NCBI GenBank assembly: GCA_024682255.1
Contig: GCA_024682255.1_4716.1
Reading direction: 5' to 3' (one strand)
Length of the DNA stretch: 64,000 bases
DNA from: a phage
Shown here piece by piece: positions 7,753-15,463 of the stretch; the first letter of the stretch is position 1, and the number at the start of each line of letters is the position of its first letter. The position numbers and the translations under genes are program-made. The notes under the pieces were generated by a model. That model was not told the origin of the DNA. It made no database searches and saw nothing but the letters and a program-made list of their open reading frames with translations.

Positions 7753-8631
7753 TTAAACCCGGGTCAGGTCACCGTGACGTGAAACGAACTCTGATAACGC
7801 TCGGGTTGCTTCTTTGGATTCTTCAGCCATCGGGAAGTTTGCGGTAATAAGTTCTCGTAAGACAGGGACGAGTTCGTTATCTTCGAGATCAGAAGCTAAA
7901 GCGAATGCAATCAGTTCTTGGGTGTATGCATACGGTTGCTGACGTAATGCAGTAAGCTGATCCCGACACTGCGACATTAGCAGGTCCAGTGGAACCGCTA
8001 TCGTACCCCCTTCATCAATATACTGGCTGAACACCGGTGGGAACGCATCGCTGATGACACGAATACGTCGACGAATATGATCCGGAATCTGGACGTTTTC
8101 TTCGTCGACGACGTTTTCGCTATCTTTCTCCAGCTTCTTGGTCAGTACCTGTTGAATGCGTGGGAGTAAGCTTGAATGTACGAAACCGATTAATGGGGTT
8201 ACATTCGCAGCATCGACGCCGTAAATGTGACGCGTACATTCTGCTAACGCTTCAGCTGCGGTGTAGTCTTCATCTTCAACGATAGCAAGTAGAAAAGCGG
8301 TATCGTCGTGTGTTTCCAGGTCTAATAACGTAGACGCTAGCGCATGAAGATATTTCAGGCTATCCAGCGATAGCTGTCCTTCGTTAATTCGGATCCCGAA
8401 GGCAAGCAATTGTTGTTTATAAAGTTCGATACATCCGTTTGTTAAAATGATGTCTAATTCGTTTAAATCGTATTGTTCCCCAGCACCTGACAACATCGTA
8501 CTGCAGAACGTTTCCAGTTGTTCACATTTAAAATCTTGGTATAAACGATGCGTGCAGTGCTGTAACAGCGTACGCCTTGTTTCAGGGATCTTACCTTCTA
8601 ACAAAGCCAAGACGGAATCAATCATATCCAC
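7753..8631 (-). CDS. Hypothetical acidic protein (292 aa)
   Basis: Long ORF with GGAGTGG RBS; first gene of minus operon diverging from + cluster. Confidence 0.7.
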   Translation of the reverse strand: MDMIDSVLALLEGKIPETRRTLLQHCTHRLYQDFKCEQLETFCSTMLSGAGEQYDLNELDIILTNGCIELYKQQLLAFGIRINEGQLSLDSLKYLHALASTLLDLETHDDTAFLLAIVEDEDYTAAEALAECTRHIYGVDAANVTPLIGFVHSSLLPRIQQVLTKKLEKDSENVVDEENVQIPDHIRRRIRVISDAFPPVFSQYIDEGGTIAVPLDLLMSQCRDQLTALRQQPYAYTQELIAFALASDLEDNELVPVLRELITANFPMAEESKEATRALSEFVSRHGDLTRV

Positions 8632-8721
8632 TCCGATGCGGTAAATGTCTACTAGCTCTCATAATCTATTGAAGAAACTACCAGCTTACGCCAACTTAGA
8701 TTAATCAGGAGTAACCATCCC

Positions 8722-9195
8722 ATGCCAGTTTCATCCAAACCAAGAAAAAAATCCGTAGGAAACCCTAAAGCTCAGGAAACAACAGCAATTCGTTGGGACG
8801 AGTTACGTGAACCTATCGAAAACTGCGAATTGTTATTAGGTACCCTGGGTGCGGCTATTTACCAAGCGACGCAGCCCTGTCGTTTACGATTAACCCAAAA
8901 CAAACGTGATGAGTTCGTTGCGTTATCAACAAGCACGAATAAAGATCTGACCGAACTTCAAACCGAATTGACGACGATCAAGAACTCCATTACGCCGATG
9001 TACGGTAAAGAAGTTGATGAACAAAGTATTCTGTTACAGTACAACTACGGGATGTCGTTAATGAACATCCTGGAACGCGCATCCGATATTCTGCGTCCTG
9101 ACGTTGCACGCCTGAGCCAACTGCGTGTTGAAGGGATGGAGAACCAGATCCGATTCGCTAACAGCGTTAAATCTCAAGGAGCCACCGAAGCATGA
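8722..9195 (+). CDS. Hypothetical protein (157 aa)
   Basis: ORF with AGGAG RBS; stop overlaps next start (ATGA). Confidence 0.65.
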   Translation: MPVSSKPRKKSVGNPKAQETTAIRWDELREPIENCELLLGTLGAAIYQATQPCRLRLTQNKRDEFVALSTSTNKDLTELQTELTTIKNSITPMYGKEVDEQSILLQYNYGMSLMNILERASDILRPDVARLSQLRVEGMENQIRFANSVKSQGATEA

Positions 9196-10877
9196 GCGAA
9201 CAAGAAAAAGAAGTCGTGACGAATCAGGAAGCCGTTGAGCGTTCAGAGTCGTCTGTTGAAACAACGATTCCGGCAAGTTCCGAGCCTGTTGGTTCCGTAC
9301 AGCAGGAAAGTAAAGACGAAGTCAACACTACTAAAGAAGATGTAGTGGCTCCAGAAGCAACCCGTGAAGAAGAACCGTCACATCCACCGCTAATCGATTT
9401 CTCGAAGGCGACGATACGTTTCCAATGCGAAGACATTCGTCCTAAGAGTCCGAAGAAAACAAAACGTCAGCCGTTGGTGTTACCGTTATATTCTCCGCGT
9501 GTGCAGACAACGTATTACCGGGAATACATCAACGAAGCAATGGATACCGTGCAAGCCATTGTCGCTCAACGCGGTAAACCGACAGACGAACAGTTTGATA
9601 AATTCAGTAAAGCGGTGGTGCAATCGGTTGCTGATGGACAATATCATCCGCGTGGTCCAGCTCACGATCGCGCGTTGGAACGTAAAGGCAGTCAGTGGAC
9701 TAACGTACCCGTAGACTCATCGGGTGTTGGTCGCGTTATTCCTGGCATTCCGCAACCGAACCATATTCCTGATGATGTCGAAGCGCCGCTGACAGGAACC
9801 GATGCGATCTATTTTGCTATCCGTAATACGAAATCAGGCGCACCTGCGGTAATGCCGTTATGGCATAGCGGTATTAAGCTGCAGTTCAATCCGCCGTCAA
9901 ATGAACGTGTTGCAATTATGCACGAACGTATTGCACGCGATAAAATCCTGGGTGGTCGTGATAGCACCGGTTTCCTGTTTTCGGCAACCTCGATTATCAC
10001 CATGAAGCACGCAATCGAATTAGCGTTAGAATGCTGTTACATGGCCAACGTACCGAACCTGGATATCCAGCGTTTGAAAGACATTATTCCGGTTACCGAT
10101 GTTCCGGCGTTGTTGTTGAACGTGCTGGTAACCATGTATCCGTACGGGTATCCTTACGTACAGACCTGCTATCAGAATCCAGAAACCTGCGACTATCGTG
10201 TCGAAGATACCGTAAGCTTTGCGAAGCTCTATCAAGTTGACAACAGCGCAATTACCAAACGTATGCGACAGATCATGACCGAAGGTCCGGTCATGACAGA
10301 TGAACTTTTGCGTGAGTATGCGAACGAGCTGGGTGAAACGAACTCCCGTACGCTGGATCTGTCCGACAACGGTTCTGTTATCATTGAACTCGAAGTACCG
10401 AAGATCTCACGACAAATCGCCATGGGTGAACGTTGGTTAAGCGATACGCTGGAAGATCTGCGTGATATTCTATCGCGTCCGTCGATGACCGAAGAAGAGC
10501 GTGATCGTGTTATTCGTGAACGTCAGTTCTATAGCTGGATGCGTCAGTATGATGCGTGGATCAAATCGATGCATGTGTCGGTAAACGGTACCATGCGTCG
10601 TGTAAGCGATGCAGATACGGCAACGGTATTAGCACAGCTGTCTCGTGACAGCGACCTTCGTGAACGCTATATCGATGGGCTGATGCAATTCATCGGTGAT
10701 TCGACGATTGCGCTCGCAGCGATGCCTGCCTGGAAATGTCCGAAATGTAATGCCGATATTGCTGACAATCTGCGTGACCAGAAATACTACGATCTGATTG
10801 CTTTGGATGTACCCCAGCTTTTTTTTACCCTAAACTCCGTCCAATCTCTTCAGGAGGGGATGGACGCGGTATTCTAA
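9192..10877 (+). CDS. Hypothetical protein (561 aa); zero-frame product of a candidate frameshift gene
   Basis: Long ORF translationally coupled to upstream gene; U7 slippery run 10820-10826 near 3' end. Confidence 0.75.
   Translation: MSEQEKEVVTNQEAVERSESSVETTIPASSEPVGSVQQESKDEVNTTKEDVVAPEATREEEPSHPPLIDFSKATIRFQCEDIRPKSPKKTKRQPLVLPLYSPRVQTTYYREYINEAMDTVQAIVAQRGKPTDEQFDKFSKAVVQSVADGQYHPRGPAHDRALERKGSQWTNVPVDSSGVGRVIPGIPQPNHIPDDVEAPLTGTDAIYFAIRNTKSGAPAVMPLWHSGIKLQFNPPSNERVAIMHERIARDKILGGRDSTGFLFSATSIITMKHAIELALECCYMANVPNLDIQRLKDIIPVTDVPALLLNVLVTMYPYGYPYVQTCYQNPETCDYRVEDTVSFAKLYQVDNSAITKRMRQIMTEGPVMTDELLREYANELGETNSRTLDLSDNGSVIIELEVPKISRQIAMGERWLSDTLEDLRDILSRPSMTEEERDRVIRERQFYSWMRQYDAWIKSMHVSVNGTMRRVSDADTATVLAQLSRDSDLRERYIDGLMQFIGDSTIALAAMPAWKCPKCNADIADNLRDQKYYDLIALDVPQLFFTLNSVQSLQEGMDAVF
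10820..10826 (+). other. Candidate -1 programmed ribosomal frameshift site (T TTT TTT)
   Basis: Heptamer in X_XXY_YYZ register of the 561-aa frame; -1 frame open 10778-11299. Confidence 0.35.
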
Positions 10878-10939
10878 TCGATCCGCGATACGGGTTACAT
10901 GACGGACAACTTGTTCGTAATGATGAAAAAATCTGGGAA

Positions 10940-11299
10940 TTGCTGTTAGCGCGTAAAGGCGATGGTGGCATGAAACTGAACATCGAAATGGGTATAGCGT
11001 ACGATACCATGTTTGGTTTGTACGACCGCGTTAACGAATGGACACCGTTGAAATGGGTGGCTCAGCATCCCGCTGAAGATCCCTGGGACAGATTAGGGAT
11101 TAAACCCTTAATCGAGGATTATGTTCGATTCGGTATTAAAGAGTTCATGACGCTGGATGCGTTTTTAAAAGCACCGTATCCTTACGCGCAAACGGTACTC
11201 AAAATCGCACAAGACGAACTGCGGAAACGTAGTGCGGTACTGGACGACGATGAGGACAAGTTACGACGAGAAGAAGAACGTTTACGAAACGGAAAATAA
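10940..11299 (+). CDS. Hypothetical protein (119 aa) or -1 frame extension of the 561-aa protein
   Basis: ORF track uses TTG start; frame is open upstream back to 10778 overlapping the 561-aa ORF end; internal ATG at 10968. Confidence 0.5.
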   Translation: MLLARKGDGGMKLNIEMGIAYDTMFGLYDRVNEWTPLKWVAQHPAEDPWDRLGIKPLIEDYVRFGIKEFMTLDAFLKAPYPYAQTVLKIAQDELRKRSAVLDDDEDKLRREEERLRNGK

Positions 11300-11300
11300 A

Positions 11301-11810
11301 ATGGCGAGATTTACCAGTTTGATTGGGTTGGATATTTGGGAAACACCGGCTGACGTTCGGGTTATTCCTGTTAACACCGTCGGTGTGATGGGACGTGGTC
11401 TTGCTAAGCAGGCAGCCGATCGTGTGCCCGGTCTTCTTGAAGCGTACCGTAAGCAATGTCAAGATGGGTTTAAGGTGGGAGAAGTCGTGTCATATCAACA
11501 CGGTGATAACGATCAACTCACTTACGTGCTGTTTCCATCAAAATCGGATTGGCGTGAAAGAACACGACGCGAGTATATCGTTAACGGTTTACTGGCGTTA
11601 AAAGCGTGGTTATTGGAGCTTCAGTTCGAAAGAGACGGCTTCTCATATCGGCGTCCGGCTGAACCGCTGATCGTTGCAATTCCTCCGGTTGGTTCTGGCT
11701 GCGGTAATATCGGCTACGGACAATCCGAAACAATCCAGCCTCAATGGGTACGCGCACAAATCAAACAGTATCTTGCCACCGTGCCAAACGTTCATTTCTA
11801 CTTGTTCTAA
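11301..11810 (+). CDS. Macro domain protein, TARG1/OARD1-like (putative ADP-ribose processing enzyme)
   Basis: Motifs VNTVGVMGRGLA and IPPVGSGCGNIGYG match macrodomain ADP-ribose binding loops; ATG at 11301 one nt after upstream stop. Confidence 0.55.
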   Translation: MARFTSLIGLDIWETPADVRVIPVNTVGVMGRGLAKQAADRVPGLLEAYRKQCQDGFKVGEVVSYQHGDNDQLTYVLFPSKSDWRERTRREYIVNGLLALKAWLLELQFERDGFSYRRPAEPLIVAIPPVGSGCGNIGYGQSETIQPQWVRAQIKQYLATVPNVHFYLF

Positions 11811-11826
11811 TGTAAAGGTAACATAA

Positions 11827-11858
11827 CCCTCTCCCAACCCGTAAGGGAAGGGAGAGGG
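11827..11858. terminator. Conserved 32-nt hairpin element, copy 2, between convergent genes
   Basis: Identical to 4659-4690; flanked by CATAA and CTTATGCTGTTATGCTGTT. Confidence 0.65.
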
Positions 11859-11875
11859 CTTATGCTGTTATGCTG

Positions 11876-12250
11876 TTAATCTTCGTTCCAGATGGCATCT
11901 TCCGGTGGAACAATAGGATCTTTCTTCGGCATTGATGGCACTTCATGACGATGCTTACGGAACTGCCTATCAATAACCTCACGAAGCCGGTACGCATCAA
12001 CCCATGTTGATTTATTGAACAGCTCCAACGTCACAGTTAGCCGTGTTCTCGACATTGAATAGCTTTTCTTTGCAATCAAATTGGGATAATTCAGTTGAGC
12101 GAACCACGCACGTATTTGTGCTTCGGTAAAAGCGATGCTGTAATAACTAAGTTTACCGTCATTAAAATCGTGCGCGTGGGTGTAGCGTCCAGCGTAACGC
12201 CAGACAAGATGCACATTCAGATCGATCCATGGTGGGGTGGTATCAGCCAT
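11876..12250 (-). CDS. Hypothetical protein (124 aa)
   Basis: ORF at end of minus operon, followed by bidirectional hairpin. Confidence 0.55.
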   Translation of the reverse strand: MADTTPPWIDLNVHLVWRYAGRYTHAHDFNDGKLSYYSIAFTEAQIRAWFAQLNYPNLIAKKSYSMSRTRLTVTLELFNKSTWVDAYRLREVIDRQFRKHRHEVPSMPKKDPIVPPEDAIWNED

Positions 12251-12259
12251 GTGTTACCC

Positions 12260-12829
12260 TCAACGATTCTTCATCACTTTACCTAGGCTTTCGATATTAT
12301 CCCAAAAGCGATTTTTACTTGGCGCATCACCGACGATAACCGACATCAAATCACGACGTTCACGACTGATGATGCCTTGTGATTTCCAGATCACCATCGT
12401 CCAGCAAGCTGCCAGAACGAACAGATGGTTAATGCTTGGTTTGGTTTGCGCAATGAACGCAAGCCATGCCCAGATACCGGTGTATACTATCGTCACTAAA
12501 AAGAGCGAGATTGTTGCAACGACAACAACGAAGTTTTGGACAGCGGGTTGATTCGCGTTATCATGAATAGCGGTAAGATCAGGAAGGTTACCTTCAACTG
12601 AACTCGTTTCATCGATTTCCAATTCTTCGATTTCTTTTCGTGTGTCAGGAGCTAATCCAGCATCATCGAGATGCTTTTTTAACCGCTGTATGCTTAATCG
12701 TTGACCGACAGGAATGTTGATGTTGTCGTAACTATTAAGCGCATCGACCAGGGAGCGTCCGTCAACGAGAACCAAGCTCGCGGTACCCATCGTTTGCGGT
12801 TTTATTTTGTAAAGGTCTTTTACTTTCAT
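12260..12829 (-). CDS. Membrane protein (189 aa), two predicted transmembrane helices
   Basis: Hydrophobic segments FVVVVATISLFLVTIVYTGIWAWLAFI and LFVLAACWTMVIW. Confidence 0.6.
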   Translation of the reverse strand: MKVKDLYKIKPQTMGTASLVLVDGRSLVDALNSYDNINIPVGQRLSIQRLKKHLDDAGLAPDTRKEIEELEIDETSSVEGNLPDLTAIHDNANQPAVQNFVVVVATISLFLVTIVYTGIWAWLAFIAQTKPSINHLFVLAACWTMVIWKSQGIISRERRDLMSVIVGDAPSKNRFWDNIESLGKVMKNR

Positions 12830-12850: not shown

Positions 12851-15463
12851 TTAAGCGTCCGGCGTAAAATCAAAAGGAATGTCCGTACGAATGATATCAT
12901 AACGTTTTCCGAGGAAATAGAACTCTTCGGGAACCTGGCCTGGAATGATGCTATCACCGATGAACTGCGGATACGCCCAGATGTACTGGGTGAGTCCTTC
13001 GAACATATCCAGGTTATTTGCGTGGTTGCCCATGATACGTTTCCAGAGTTCGCGTTTATACGGCGTTTTAACATCGAACCCATAAAGCGGTGCGAGGTCT
13101 TCACCAGGAACAAATCCCAGGTAATAGTGGATCTGACTAACTGGGAAACCAAGGGTATCTCGCGGAATGGTGATCGCTTGCTCAGCCTTGGTGACATGCG
13201 TCTCAATAATCCAGTCATAGCACTCTGAATAGAACCGATCGAATTTCTCTGGATTATACCACGCTTTGGGAAGATTGAGTTTCTCCGTGAACGCGTTCGA
13301 CATGATCGTCGGCAAGAACGGAAGAACGCCGGTTTTGATCTGCGTGTATTTCGATTTTACCCGGTTAACGAGATTCCAGCAACTGTATCCTAACTGTTCG
13401 TTACAAAACTCAACATAGAGATCGTAGTCACCACCGGATAACGGGTTGTTAATATCACCGATGTCTGCGGCGTATTTGTTGGGATATCGGTTATTGAAAG
13501 CCAGTTTGGTTTGGTAGTCGTAGATACACGGTTTGTTGTTCGCTGTATTGATCCACCACCAGGGTTCACCTACTTGTACACAAATGTCCTGGACATGAGG
13601 GTAAATGATATCAGCAAACGCGGTTAACACATCCCCTAACCACGTCATCGCCTGTTGGTTACATGGAGACAACAACCAAGACGGTGGCGTATATCCGGTT
13701 GCTGCGATGTTTCCTTCCCAATCCTGCTGCGCCCACTCGAACGGGCATGCGGTACTCATCAATTCGTAACTTAAACTGATGGTGACGGAGAAATGGTGTT
13801 TTGCAGCATATGCGGCGAAAGCTTCATGCCACGCGATACAGGCCGGATTTAATACATCCGTGGTGTTCACCAGTAACTTACCCGCACTTGGCGTCCAGAC
13901 AGTATCGTAGAAATGCGACATCCCAACATAATGCACTAATTCATCTTGATACCCCGCATAAACCAGGTTCTCAAATACGCGCTCCGGCGTGATGTTGTAA
14001 TGGTCATCATAAGCGGTTATCGCACGAAGTTCGTGTGGCGTACAGTGGTGGCGACTAACCGTCATTTCCTGATACACCCCATCGATAGGAAGAATCTCGA
14101 TGGTTAAACCGAGGTCGATTGGCGTTTCCAGATAGGTCGTTTCAGTCGCATCTTCCTTATAATGTCGAGAACTCATGCTGAACATCAACGACGTTACCGA
14201 TTCGAGTTCGATGGGTTCGTCAGCATAGAACCCCGCCATTGCGTCATTGAAATCGATCGTCACGATTGCGCTTCTACCGTCTTCAGAGACATCGGTCGCA
14301 TATCGGGTTAATGAGATATACTGACGGCTATCGTCTTTGTGTACGACGGTTAAAACCGGCGGGTGTTCGGTATCTGCAAAGTTACGCTGATCGCCAGTAA
14401 ACGTGACCTTCGCTTTAAAGATCAAACCGAGTAACGATGTCATGGGATCATACGCAATACATCCGTGATCCAGCGTATCCGTTGTCCGCCATTCTATCCC
14501 GACCAACCCGTTAGCGGTATGACATCGCATATACGCATTAAGTGTCATGTCCTCACTGACAACCGCGAAGTTCTCTGTTGACTGACCGTTGATAATCCAA
14601 TACATCGGTTGCCAGAGGTTACGCGTACCTTTTGCGTAGCGGTAGGTTGGTGCGCCTTTGGGGTTGCCATTATTAAGATGGAATACGGCAGTACCTTGAT
14701 AATGGTCGTTCGTATTAATCGGAACACTGTAAGCATCGCCGAGGTCCGTACGTTCCACCTTCGTGACTGTCGCGTTTTCAAATAACCCACGTAGCGCGGG
14801 TAAACCGATATCTTCCGGCGCGTTTTCTCGACGAATCGCATCCGCGATGCGGTGGGCTAAGGCGGGGTAAATGACCTCACCCTGTTGTAGGTTTGCAAGA
14901 CCTACAAAGCGATCGGGAGCGATACCAGCAATCAATAACTCGACATCACCCTTCGTTCTATCGTCGTTAAGATATTTCAGTCCGGTAAGGTCAAGATGCT
15001 GAATAAGCGACAACAGGTTGTATTTACGGTTTTCAACAGTTAGTACAAGATCGCCCGCCCAAACCAAACTTCCCTCATCCGCTGTTACTTTAACGGATTG
15101 TCGGCCCGTGGTAGACGTTGTTGTCGTTTTATTTAATTGTCCTTGTAGGAAGTCGGTTGCGAGGTCAAAGGCGATACCGTAACGGTCAGCGACCGCTTGC
15201 ATGATTTCACGTAACTGGGTATCTTCTTCAATGATAATCTTGACAGGTATTCCCAAGAACGCTTTAGCGAGGTCTCGTTTAACCAACGAGACGAATACGG
15301 ATTTGTAGTATCGGCTTCCATCTTTCCCTTTAAAAAGAATGGAGGTTGTTTCGGGTGCCGATAGAACACGTGCAAATACAACATCGTCGGAAGTAAGAGA
15401 AAGTCCGTTTTTCTCGTTGACCAATCTTAGTATTTCATTTTGCGCGGTTTCATGTAACTTCAT
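12851..15463 (-). CDS. Large receptor-binding or tailspike-like structural protein (870 aa) with shared N-terminal anchor module
   Basis: N-terminus shares RD(I/L)AKAFLGIPVKI and DRYG(I/F)(A/V)FD motifs with 21250-21777 and 62527-end products; position in tail fibre cluster. Confidence 0.6.
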   Translation of the reverse strand: MKLHETAQNEILRLVNEKNGLSLTSDDVVFARVLSAPETTSILFKGKDGSRYYKSVFVSLVKRDLAKAFLGIPVKIIIEEDTQLREIMQAVADRYGIAFDLATDFLQGQLNKTTTTSTTGRQSVKVTADEGSLVWAGDLVLTVENRKYNLLSLIQHLDLTGLKYLNDDRTKGDVELLIAGIAPDRFVGLANLQQGEVIYPALAHRIADAIRRENAPEDIGLPALRGLFENATVTKVERTDLGDAYSVPINTNDHYQGTAVFHLNNGNPKGAPTYRYAKGTRNLWQPMYWIINGQSTENFAVVSEDMTLNAYMRCHTANGLVGIEWRTTDTLDHGCIAYDPMTSLLGLIFKAKVTFTGDQRNFADTEHPPVLTVVHKDDSRQYISLTRYATDVSEDGRSAIVTIDFNDAMAGFYADEPIELESVTSLMFSMSSRHYKEDATETTYLETPIDLGLTIEILPIDGVYQEMTVSRHHCTPHELRAITAYDDHYNITPERVFENLVYAGYQDELVHYVGMSHFYDTVWTPSAGKLLVNTTDVLNPACIAWHEAFAAYAAKHHFSVTISLSYELMSTACPFEWAQQDWEGNIAATGYTPPSWLLSPCNQQAMTWLGDVLTAFADIIYPHVQDICVQVGEPWWWINTANNKPCIYDYQTKLAFNNRYPNKYAADIGDINNPLSGGDYDLYVEFCNEQLGYSCWNLVNRVKSKYTQIKTGVLPFLPTIMSNAFTEKLNLPKAWYNPEKFDRFYSECYDWIIETHVTKAEQAITIPRDTLGFPVSQIHYYLGFVPGEDLAPLYGFDVKTPYKRELWKRIMGNHANNLDMFEGLTQYIWAYPQFIGDSIIPGQVPEEFYFLGKRYDIIRTDIPFDFTPDA

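What the first reader, a model, noticed from the sequence alone, without database searches (positions are those of the whole stretch)
11301..11810. Phage-encoded TARG1/DarG-like macro domain protein: possible reversal of host ADP-ribosylation
The product carries the two glycine-rich ADP-ribose-binding loops of macrodomains (VNTVGVMGRGLA; IPPVGSGCGNIGYG), most like the TARG1/OARD1/DarG antitoxin subtype. DarT-type toxins ADP-ribosylate DNA and act in phage defence, so a phage macrodomain is a plausible counter-defence enzyme. It is tightly packed (one-nt gap) behind the candidate frameshift gene.
Basis: partly seen in the sequence, partly recalled or inferred. Interest (0 to 1): 0.6.

Follow-up and report, generated by a model that had tools for sequence, protein, structure and literature searches.

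The report
Known phage anti-DarT macrodomain (AdfM)

Summary
Window 11301-11810 (+) encodes a 169-aa stand-alone macrodomain, one base after the upstream stop, and it carries both glycine-rich loops.

The window is a relative of Escherichia phage Goslar, a nucleus-forming jumbo phage, at about 94-96% DNA identity. The protein is 97% identical to Goslar gp83.

Sequence profiles, solved structures and a confident AlphaFold model all place it nearest the DarG macrodomain. These are PADLOC DarG (4e-22), NCBIfam antitoxin_DarG (9e-23, N-terminal half only) and PDB 5M31/5M3E (5e-15). Foldseek ranks DarG first and TARG1 second.

The catalytic Asn and Lys (N25, K81) are conserved, and dN/dS against Goslar is 0.06.

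The counter-defence idea is already published. Morgan et al., Cell Rep 2026 (PMC13309987) named PhiKZ gp104 "AdfM". They showed that it removes DarT2 ADP-ribose from DNA, enters the phage nucleus and protects against DarTG2. Goslar gp83 is listed in their alignment.

The Goslar-type protein itself has not been assayed. It is only about 32% identical to the tested proteins and has two clade-specific insertions.

Verdict: interpretation supported, already known, low interest.

The parts
11301..11810 (+). adfM ortholog: a 169-aa stand-alone DarG2-like macrodomain, the counterpart of Goslar gp83 (stop codon included)
   Evidence: ORF and translation. 97% aa identity to Goslar gp83. Pfam Macro, PADLOC DarG, NCBIfam DarG and PDB DarG matches. 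AF2 model with pLDDT 86.5, and Foldseek top hits are DarG macrodomains. Reciprocal tblastn with PhiKZ gp104 and PhiPA3 gp108 hits only here, E about 1e-21.
11370..11405 (+). Loop 1, VNTVGVMGRGLA (residues 24-35). It contains N25, the equivalent of catalytic N22 of T. aquaticus DarG and N23 of PhiKZ AdfM.
   Evidence: Alignments A1 and A2: N25, G28, M30, G31 and G33 are invariant. The PhiKZ N23A mutant has reduced activity (PMC13309987).
11541..11543 (+). Codon for K81 in the FPSK motif, the equivalent of catalytic K80 of T. aquaticus DarG and K78 of PhiKZ AdfM
   Evidence: K81 is invariant in alignments A1 and A2. The residue roles come from the legend of Fig. 1C in PMC13309987.
11679..11720 (+). 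Loop 2, IPPVGSGCGNIGYG (residues 127-140), the glycine-rich second loop
   Evidence: P128, G131, G133 and G135 are invariant across 14 homologs, and the loop has the same length as in the other members. Part of it (residues 135-141) is modelled with low confidence.
11622..11666 (+). Goslar-clade-specific insertion 1 (about residues 108-122, QFERDGFSYRRPAEP). It is absent from T. aquaticus DarG and from the more distant stand-alone macros.
   Evidence: Alignments A1 and A2. Model confidence is lower here: the 111-120 block has mean pLDDT 64.
11715..11741 (+). Goslar-clade-specific insertion 2 (about residues 139-147, YGQSETIQP), directly after loop 2
   Evidence: Alignment A2.
11828..11860 (.). 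GC-rich hairpin (CCCTCTCCC...GGGAGAGGG) between the convergent adfM gene and the minus-strand gene at 11876-12250. It is probably a terminator.
   Evidence: Read directly from the sequence. A feature at the corresponding position in Goslar (record 93445-93476, between gp083 and gp084) is annotated as a putative terminator. The simple terminator scan did not call it, because no T-run follows the stem.

Best explanation
The gene is the adfM (anti-DarT factor, macro) ortholog of a Goslar-like, nucleus-forming jumbo phage of enterobacteria. Its product is an orphan DarG2-type macrodomain with no DarT-binding C-terminal domain.

Proposed mechanism: when a host DarTG2 system is triggered, DarT2 ADP-ribosylates thymidines in single-stranded phage DNA. 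The phage enzyme binds the ADP-ribose in its two glycine-rich loops and hydrolyses the thymidine-ribose bond using the conserved N25/K81 pair. This restores unmodified DNA so that replication and packaging can proceed. By analogy with PhiKZ, PhiPA3 and Asesino, it is probably imported into the phage nucleus by the PicA pathway, where it works together with the shell that largely excludes DarT2.

Shown here: the fold, the DarG-like subtype, the catalytic residues, orthology to Goslar gp83, homology to the assayed AdfMs, and purifying selection.

Inferred, not shown: enzymatic activity on ADP-ribosyl-thymidine, nuclear localisation, and protection against E. coli DarTG2 for this Goslar-type protein.
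For: - Phage identity: 95.8% DNA identity to Goslar over 4 kb and 93.8% over 25 kb, collinear.
- Orthology: the protein is 97% identical to Goslar gp83, annotated as a macro domain-containing protein.
- Subtype: PADLOC DarG 4.1e-22 and NCBIfam antitoxin_DarG 8.6e-23, covering profile positions 7-146 of 338. PDB 5m31/5m3e and 5m3i, the T. aquaticus and M. tuberculosis DarG macrodomains (named), give 5e-15 and 4e-11.
- Fold: the AF2 model has pLDDT 86.5 and pTM 0.85. Foldseek against PDB ranks 5m3e, 5m31, 5m3i and 7omu (all DarG) at E 2e-13 to 7e-11, ahead of TARG1 at 2e-9.
- Catalytic residues: N25 and K81 align with N22/K80 of T. aquaticus DarG and N23/K78 of PhiKZ AdfM.
- Family link: the assayed AdfMs PhiKZ gp104 and PhiPA3 gp108 hit the window only at this gene, E about 1e-21.
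- Published function (PMC13309987): PhiKZ AdfM removes DarT2 ADP-ribose from DNA in vitro and rescues DarT2 toxicity; the AdfMs of PhiKZ, PhiPA3 and Asesino are nuclear; AdfM deletion sensitises phage to DarTG2. Goslar gp83 is in their alignment.
- Host relevance: E. coli carries a native DarTG2 system in EPEC E2348/69 (PMC12255303).
- Selection: dN/dS is 0.06. A 47%-identical ortholog keeps the same four-gene order in a more distant Goslar-like contig.
Against: - No experiment exists for the Goslar-type protein. The paper tested PhiKZ, PhiPA3 and Asesino only.
- Identity to the tested proteins is only about 32%.
- Two clade-specific insertions lie next to the active-site loops. Part of loop 2 is modelled with low confidence, pLDDT below 50 for residues 135-141.
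- Gene neighbourhood is not shared with PhiKZ: gp100-102 show no detectable similarity to the three upstream genes here.
- Nuclear import is phage-specific even between PhiKZ and PhiPA3 (PMC11087766), so localisation cannot be transferred with certainty.
Confidence: 0.8

Rival explanations
1. It has the same macrodomain fold but a different substrate. It would reverse ADP-ribosylation of protein (as TARG1 does on Glu/Asp) or of RNA, or process free ADP-ribose derivatives (O-acetyl-ADP-ribose, ADP-ribose-1''-phosphate). It would then counter another ADP-ribosyltransferase-based or NAD-derived defence, or regulate a phage-encoded modifier, rather than DarT2.
For: TARG1 is the second structural neighbour, at E 2e-9. 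The PHROG family it hits is labelled 'phosphatase', and several database entries call homologs Appr-1-p phosphatase or O-acetyl-ADP-ribose deacetylase. Clade-specific insertions near the binding loops could change specificity. No assay exists for the Goslar type.
Against: All top sequence and fold matches are DarG rather than other macro classes, and the similarity is higher: 27-30% identity against 15-18% for TARG1. The homologs that were actually tested act on DarT2-modified DNA (PMC13309987). The 'phosphatase' and 'deacetylase' names are inherited annotations, not tests.
Confidence: 0.12
2. It is a non-catalytic ADP-ribose binder or sponge. It would sequester ADP-ribose-derived immune signals or shield modified sites without hydrolysis.
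For: Macrodomains are ADP-ribose-binding modules, and both binding loops are intact.
Against: The catalytic Asn and Lys of DarG/AdfM are strictly conserved across the clade, from 99% down to 33% identity. That pattern is what one expects for an enzyme. PhiKZ AdfM is catalytic, and its N23A mutant is impaired.
Confidence: 0.04
3. It is a decaying or dispensable remnant, or a mis-called ORF, with no current function.
For: No evidence found. The only possible point is that about half of chimalliviruses lack the gene, so it is accessory.
Against: dN/dS is 0.06 against Goslar. The ORF is intact and the same length in orthologs at 85-99% and 47% identity, with conserved gene order. The fold prediction is confident.
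Confidence: 0.02

Closest known systems
AdfM (anti-DarT factor macro) of chimalliviruses: PhiKZ gp104, PhiPA3 gp108, Asesino gp217, Goslar gp83 (Morgan et al., Cell Rep 2026, PMC13309987)
   Same: Both are stand-alone macrodomains of about 160-170 aa encoded by a chimallivirus, and both are DarG2-like with a conserved catalytic Asn and Lys. The window protein is 97% identical to Goslar gp83, which the paper lists as a family member. It is the reciprocal unique match of PhiKZ gp104 and PhiPA3 gp108.
   Different: It is only about 32% identical to the members that were assayed, and it has two Goslar-clade insertions (about residues 108-122 and 139-147). Its gene neighbourhood differs from PhiKZ. 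Activity and nuclear import have not been tested for the Goslar type.
DarG2 antitoxin of DarTG2 toxin-antitoxin systems (T. aquaticus, M. tuberculosis, Thermosipho africanus; PDB 5M31/5M3E, 5M3I, 7OMU)
   Same: It has the same macrodomain subtype, and this is its closest sequence and structural neighbour. The catalytic N and K and both glycine loops are present. Over 110 shared columns it is 40% identical to T. aquaticus DarG, at least as close as it is to PhiKZ AdfM at 34.5%.
   Different: It lacks the C-terminal DarT-binding domain: it is 169 aa and matches only positions 7-146 of the 338-position NCBIfam model, scoring 81 bits against a cutoff of 250. No darT gene lies next to it. It is encoded by a lytic phage and acts against the host toxin, not as a cognate antitoxin.
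TARG1/OARD1 (human terminal ADP-ribose glycohydrolase 1; PDB 4J5Q/4J5R/4J5S)
   Same: It belongs to the same macrodomain class and is the second-best structural group, at E 2e-9 to 2e-8 and TM about 0.7-0.86.
   Different: Sequence identity is much lower, 15-18%. From general knowledge rather than anything tested here, TARG1 is a eukaryotic enzyme acting mainly on glutamate/aspartate-linked ADP-ribose.
AdfN, the orphan NADAR anti-DarTG1 enzymes of T4-like phages (PMC11825919)
   Same: It follows the same strategy: a phage carries an orphan copy of the antitoxin's hydrolase domain to erase DarT's DNA modification.
   Different: AdfN has an unrelated fold (NADAR, not macro). It is specific for guanosine-linked ADP-ribose from DarT1 and does not counter DarTG2.

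Membership tests
AdfM (chimallivirus anti-DarT factor macro) | Encoded by a chimallivirus (nucleus-forming PhiKZ-like jumbo phage) | tested here: met
   The window is collinear with Goslar at 93.8-95.8% DNA identity. Goslar is treated as a chimallivirus in PMC13309987 and PMC11087766.
AdfM (chimallivirus anti-DarT factor macro) | Single-domain macrodomain protein homologous to PhiKZ gp104 | tested here: met
   Pfam Macro scores above its gathering score. tblastn to PhiKZ gp104 gives E 2e-14 over residues 1-162, at one place per genome. The reciprocal search hits only 11301-11789, E 8e-21. The protein is 97% identical to Goslar gp83, which the authors list in the family.
AdfM (chimallivirus anti-DarT factor macro) | Catalytic Asn (PhiKZ N23) and Lys (PhiKZ K78) conserved | tested here: met
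   N25 and K81 are invariant in alignments A1 and A2.
AdfM (chimallivirus anti-DarT factor macro) | Removes DarT2-installed ADP-ribose from thymidine in ssDNA and neutralises DarT2 toxicity | not testable with these tools
   Shown only for PhiKZ AdfM (PMC13309987). It needs biochemistry and genetics for the Goslar type.
AdfM (chimallivirus anti-DarT factor macro) | Imported into the phage nucleus (PicA-dependent) | not testable with these tools
   Shown for PhiKZ, PhiPA3 and Asesino. Import signals are phage-specific surface features (PMC11087766). Goslar gp83 has not been imaged in the papers found.
DarG2 antitoxin (NCBIfam NF048014, type II TA antitoxin) | N-terminal DarG-type macrodomain | tested here: met
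DarG2 antitoxin (NCBIfam NF048014, type II TA antitoxin) | C-terminal DarT-binding domain (full-length protein of about 340 aa that reaches the model's cutoff) | tested here: not met
   The protein is 169 aa and the match covers profile positions 7-146 of 338. It scores 81.1 bits against a cutoff of 250.
DarG2 antitoxin (NCBIfam NF048014, type II TA antitoxin) | Adjacent darT toxin gene in an operon | tested here: not met
   The three genes on each side have no DarT or other ADP-ribosyltransferase Pfam or PHROG match. The rest of the window was not scanned.
TARG1/OARD1-class macrodomain (structural class) | Macro fold with TARG1-like catalytic lysine | tested here: met
   Foldseek hits TARG1 at E 2e-9 to 2e-8. 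K81 sits at the position of DarG K80. The equivalence of DarG K80 to the TARG1 catalytic lysine is from general knowledge and was not tested here.

The most novel reading that the evidence does not exclude
The Goslar-clade protein may not simply be a divergent copy of the PhiKZ-type AdfM. It may be a separately captured bacterial DarG2 macrodomain. It is at least as similar to T. aquaticus DarG as to PhiKZ AdfM, it shares no synteny with PhiKZ, and it has two clade-specific insertions. Those surface insertions could have been added to serve as the recognition patch for the Goslar PicA importer, or to shift substrate range, for example to other DarT motifs or other ADP-ribosyl linkages. My evidence does not exclude this. 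The identity difference (44 against 38 matches out of 110 columns) is not statistically meaningful.
Probability: 0.15. Interest if true: 0.35.

Novelty: already known. Interest (0 to 1): 0.15.

Why it matters
It matters little as a discovery. The family, its mechanism and the Goslar ortholog were published in April 2026.

The residual value is practical. It gives an E. coli-infecting, genetically tractable representative (CRISPRi-ART already works in Goslar) in which to test whether the AdfM-plus-nucleus strategy holds against native E. coli DarTG2 systems. It also adds a divergent sequence clade, with two insertions, for mapping what determines nuclear import and substrate specificity.

It also shows that the first-stage reader can correctly infer a counter-defence function from motif reading alone.

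Tried and rejected
- Synteny with PhiKZ. I compared the three upstream genes with PhiKZ gp100, gp101 and gp102 by BLASTP and found no significant similarity. Gene context therefore gives no extra support for common descent.
- Neighbour function. PHROG and Pfam scans of six neighbours gave only unknown-function families, plus a DUF7941/tail-sheath-like host-recognition protein downstream. None was a DarT or an ADP-ribosyltransferase. I rejected the idea that this is part of a phage-borne toxin-antitoxin pair.
- Promoter and terminator scan of 8400-12400. It found nothing useful: one promoter-like site, fewer than in shuffles, and no terminator calls.
- The longer ORF (GTG 11232, or the RefSeq-style ATG 11250 giving 186 aa). 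I rejected it in favour of ATG 11301, on the homolog N-termini and the orthologous gene boundary.
- Literature on Goslar gp83 itself. There is no localisation, proteomic or functional data beyond its listing in the AdfM alignment.
- The word-indexed homolog search returned only 15 proteins and no full-length DarG. It could not settle where the Goslar-type gene came from. I did not build a phylogeny because 110 shared columns would not resolve it.

Full report
**Observation**

Window 11301-11810 (+) is an intact ORF of 169 codons plus a stop. Its ATG lies one base after the TAA (11297-11299) of the upstream gene. The mechanical ORF list extends the frame upstream to GTG 11232, and RefSeq annotates the Goslar ortholog from an ATG equivalent to 11250, giving 186 aa with a 50-nt overlap of the upstream gene.

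Three results favour ATG 11301 as the start:
- PhiKZ gp104 and PhiPA3 gp108 align from their residue 1 to base 11301.
- The N-termini are alike: MARF here, MAEF in PhiKZ, MANF in the 47% orthologs.
- In a more distant relative (L004) the orthologous gene starts two bases after the upstream stop.

**Where the window comes from**

The 4 kb around the gene is 95.8% identical to Escherichia phage vB_EcoM_Goslar, and the first 25 kb of the window is 93.8% identical and collinear with it. Only the Goslar records match in the phage collection. Goslar is a chimallivirus, that is, a nucleus-forming jumbo phage (PMC13309987, PMC11087766). The gene corresponds to Goslar gp083, which RefSeq annotates as a macro domain-containing protein. 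The proteins are 97% identical, with 5 substitutions.

At the DNA level there are 24.5 synonymous and 5.5 non-synonymous differences, giving dN/dS of 0.06. The gene is therefore under strong purifying selection.

**What the protein is**

Sequence evidence:
- Pfam Macro (PF01661) scores above its gathering threshold, 25.9 against 22 bits.
- The PADLOC DarG model gives E=4.1e-22.
- NCBIfam antitoxin_DarG gives E=8.6e-23. It covers only profile positions 7-146 of 338 and scores far below the equivalog cutoff, 81 against 250 bits.
- Among solved structures, the best sequence matches are 5m31/5m3e at 5.4e-15, 5m3i at 3.9e-11 and 7omu at 1e-4. The Foldseek PDB table names these as the T. aquaticus DarG macrodomain, the M. 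tuberculosis DarG macrodomain and Thermosipho africanus DarTG.

Structural evidence: an AlphaFold2 model built on a 14-sequence alignment is confident, with mean pLDDT 86.5 and pTM 0.85. Foldseek against the PDB ranks the same four DarG entries first, at E 2e-13 to 7e-11 with 24-30% identity. Human TARG1 follows at 2e-9 to 2e-8 with 15-18% identity. Further down come other macrodomains such as Poa1p, alphavirus nsP3 and SCO6735.

The DarG/TARG1 subtype assignment is right.

The catalytic residues of T. aquaticus DarG (N22, K80), which correspond to N23 and K78 in PhiKZ AdfM, align with N25 and K81 here. Both are invariant across homologs from 99% down to 33% identity.

**What it is not**

It is not a DarG antitoxin in the toxin-antitoxin sense. 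The DarT-binding C-terminal half is absent. None of the three genes on either side matches DarT or any ADP-ribosyltransferase. It is an orphan hydrolase domain in a lytic phage.

**Comparison with what is known**

A literature search found Morgan et al., Cell Rep 2026 (PMC13309987). Their findings were:
- The AdfMs of PhiKZ, PhiPA3 and Asesino localise to the phage nucleus.
- Purified PhiKZ AdfM removes DarT2-installed ADP-ribose from a TNTC oligonucleotide, and the N23A mutant is impaired.
- PhiKZ AdfM rescues DarT2 toxicity in E. coli.
- Phages deleted for AdfM become sensitive to DarTG2 systems, with ADP-ribosylated DNA, reduced replication and blocked packaging.
- Sensitivity depends on the nuclear levels of both DarT2 and AdfM. 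PicA governs AdfM import.

Goslar gp83 (YP_009820768.1) is one of the five sequences in their Figure 1B alignment. The target system exists in the host species: EPEC E2348/69 carries a native DarTG2 inside a type I R-M island (PMC12255303).

**What remains open for this particular protein**

The Goslar-type AdfM has not been assayed or imaged in any paper I found. It is only about 32% identical to the tested proteins.

Relative to T. aquaticus DarG and to more distant stand-alone macros, the Goslar clade carries two insertions. The clade comprises orthologs at 85-99% and 47% identity, the latter on a 46.7-kb metagenomic contig with the same four-gene order. The insertions lie at about residues 108-122 and 139-147 and flank loop 2. 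Model confidence drops there.

In PhiKZ gp104 the determinants of PicA-dependent import map to the middle and C-terminal thirds of the protein, and they are phage-specific (PMC11087766). It is therefore a reasonable but untested idea that these insertions contribute to recognition by the Goslar importer.

Over 110 shared alignment columns, the window protein is 40.0% identical to T. aquaticus DarG and 34.5% identical to PhiKZ AdfM. The upstream genes show no similarity to those upstream of PhiKZ gp104. This leaves room for independent capture of a bacterial DarG2 macrodomain, but the difference is within noise.

**Mechanism and confidence**

I commit to this reading: an orphan DarG2-type ADP-ribosyl-thymidine glycohydrolase that erases DarT2 marks from phage DNA, most likely inside the phage nucleus (confidence 0.8).

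The rivals are:
- a different ADP-ribosyl substrate, whether protein, RNA or a small molecule (0.12);
- a non-catalytic binder (0.04);
- a non-functional remnant (0.02).

The database labels 'phosphatase' and 'O-acetyl-ADP-ribose deacetylase' seen on homologs are inherited names, not evidence.

**Verdict**

The finding is already known, so interest is low (0.15). The most novel reading not excluded is independent capture, with the insertions acting as import or specificity determinants. I give that a probability of about 0.15 and modest interest if true.

Noticed in passing
window 11250-11300; L001 8230-8280 (Goslar record 92868-92918): The RefSeq start of Goslar gp083 (186 aa) overlaps gp082 by 50 nt and is probably 17 codons too long. 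Homolog N-termini and the orthologous gene boundary in L004 support the ATG equivalent to window 11301 (169 aa).
   Followed up: yes
tblastn hits H89-H98 (e.g. Escherichia phages EC.W14-3, PGN6866, vB_EcoP_DE5, KM01, YW01; Shigella phage ShigP1; records of 69-79 kb): E. coli and Shigella phages with genomes of 69-79 kb, too small to be jumbo phages, carry stand-alone DarG-like macro proteins 28-31% identical to this one (E 7e-9 to 2e-7). The AdfM paper deals with chimalliviruses. A macrodomain anti-DarT factor acting without a phage nucleus would be a separate question, and I saw no test of it.
   Followed up: no
P0001: A 99%-identical protein is deposited at NCBI under Salmonella enterica serovar Muenchen (hypothetical protein DKS90_25515) on an 809-bp contig, and its cluster has 49 member sequences. 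It is probably Goslar-like phage DNA in bacterial assemblies. It hints at Salmonella as a host, or at contamination.
   Followed up: no
L004 3500-6510 (Logan ERR13925542 contig, 46.7 kb): A more distant Goslar-like phage contig keeps the same four-gene plus-strand block (150, 536, 119 and 169 aa). Upstream are two divergently transcribed genes of 286 and 439 aa, in the positions occupied in Goslar by gp079 (290 aa) and gp078 (433 aa, RNA polymerase beta subunit); I did not compare their sequences. Its AdfM ortholog is 47% identical and has the same insertions.
   Followed up: partly
window 9192-10877 and 10970-11299 (+): The two genes upstream of adfM (Goslar gp081 and gp082 homologs) match only PHROG families of unknown function (phrog_4585, phrog_12109) and no Pfam family. 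They are separate genes with a 92-nt gap here and a 65-nt gap in L004.
   Followed up: partly
window 12851-15463 (-): This 870-aa protein has an N-terminal DUF7941 module plus non-contractile-tail-sheath N-terminal and TIM-barrel domains. It is the homolog of Goslar gp86, which a 2026 bioRxiv Goslar virion-structure paper groups among DUF7941 proteins with predicted host-recognition roles.
   Followed up: partly
window 11828-11860: A 9-bp GC-rich perfect hairpin (CCCTCTCCC/GGGAGAGGG, with an inner CCC/GGG pairing) lies between convergent genes. A feature at the corresponding position in Goslar is annotated as a terminator, but the simple terminator scan missed it because no T-run follows.
   Followed up: partly
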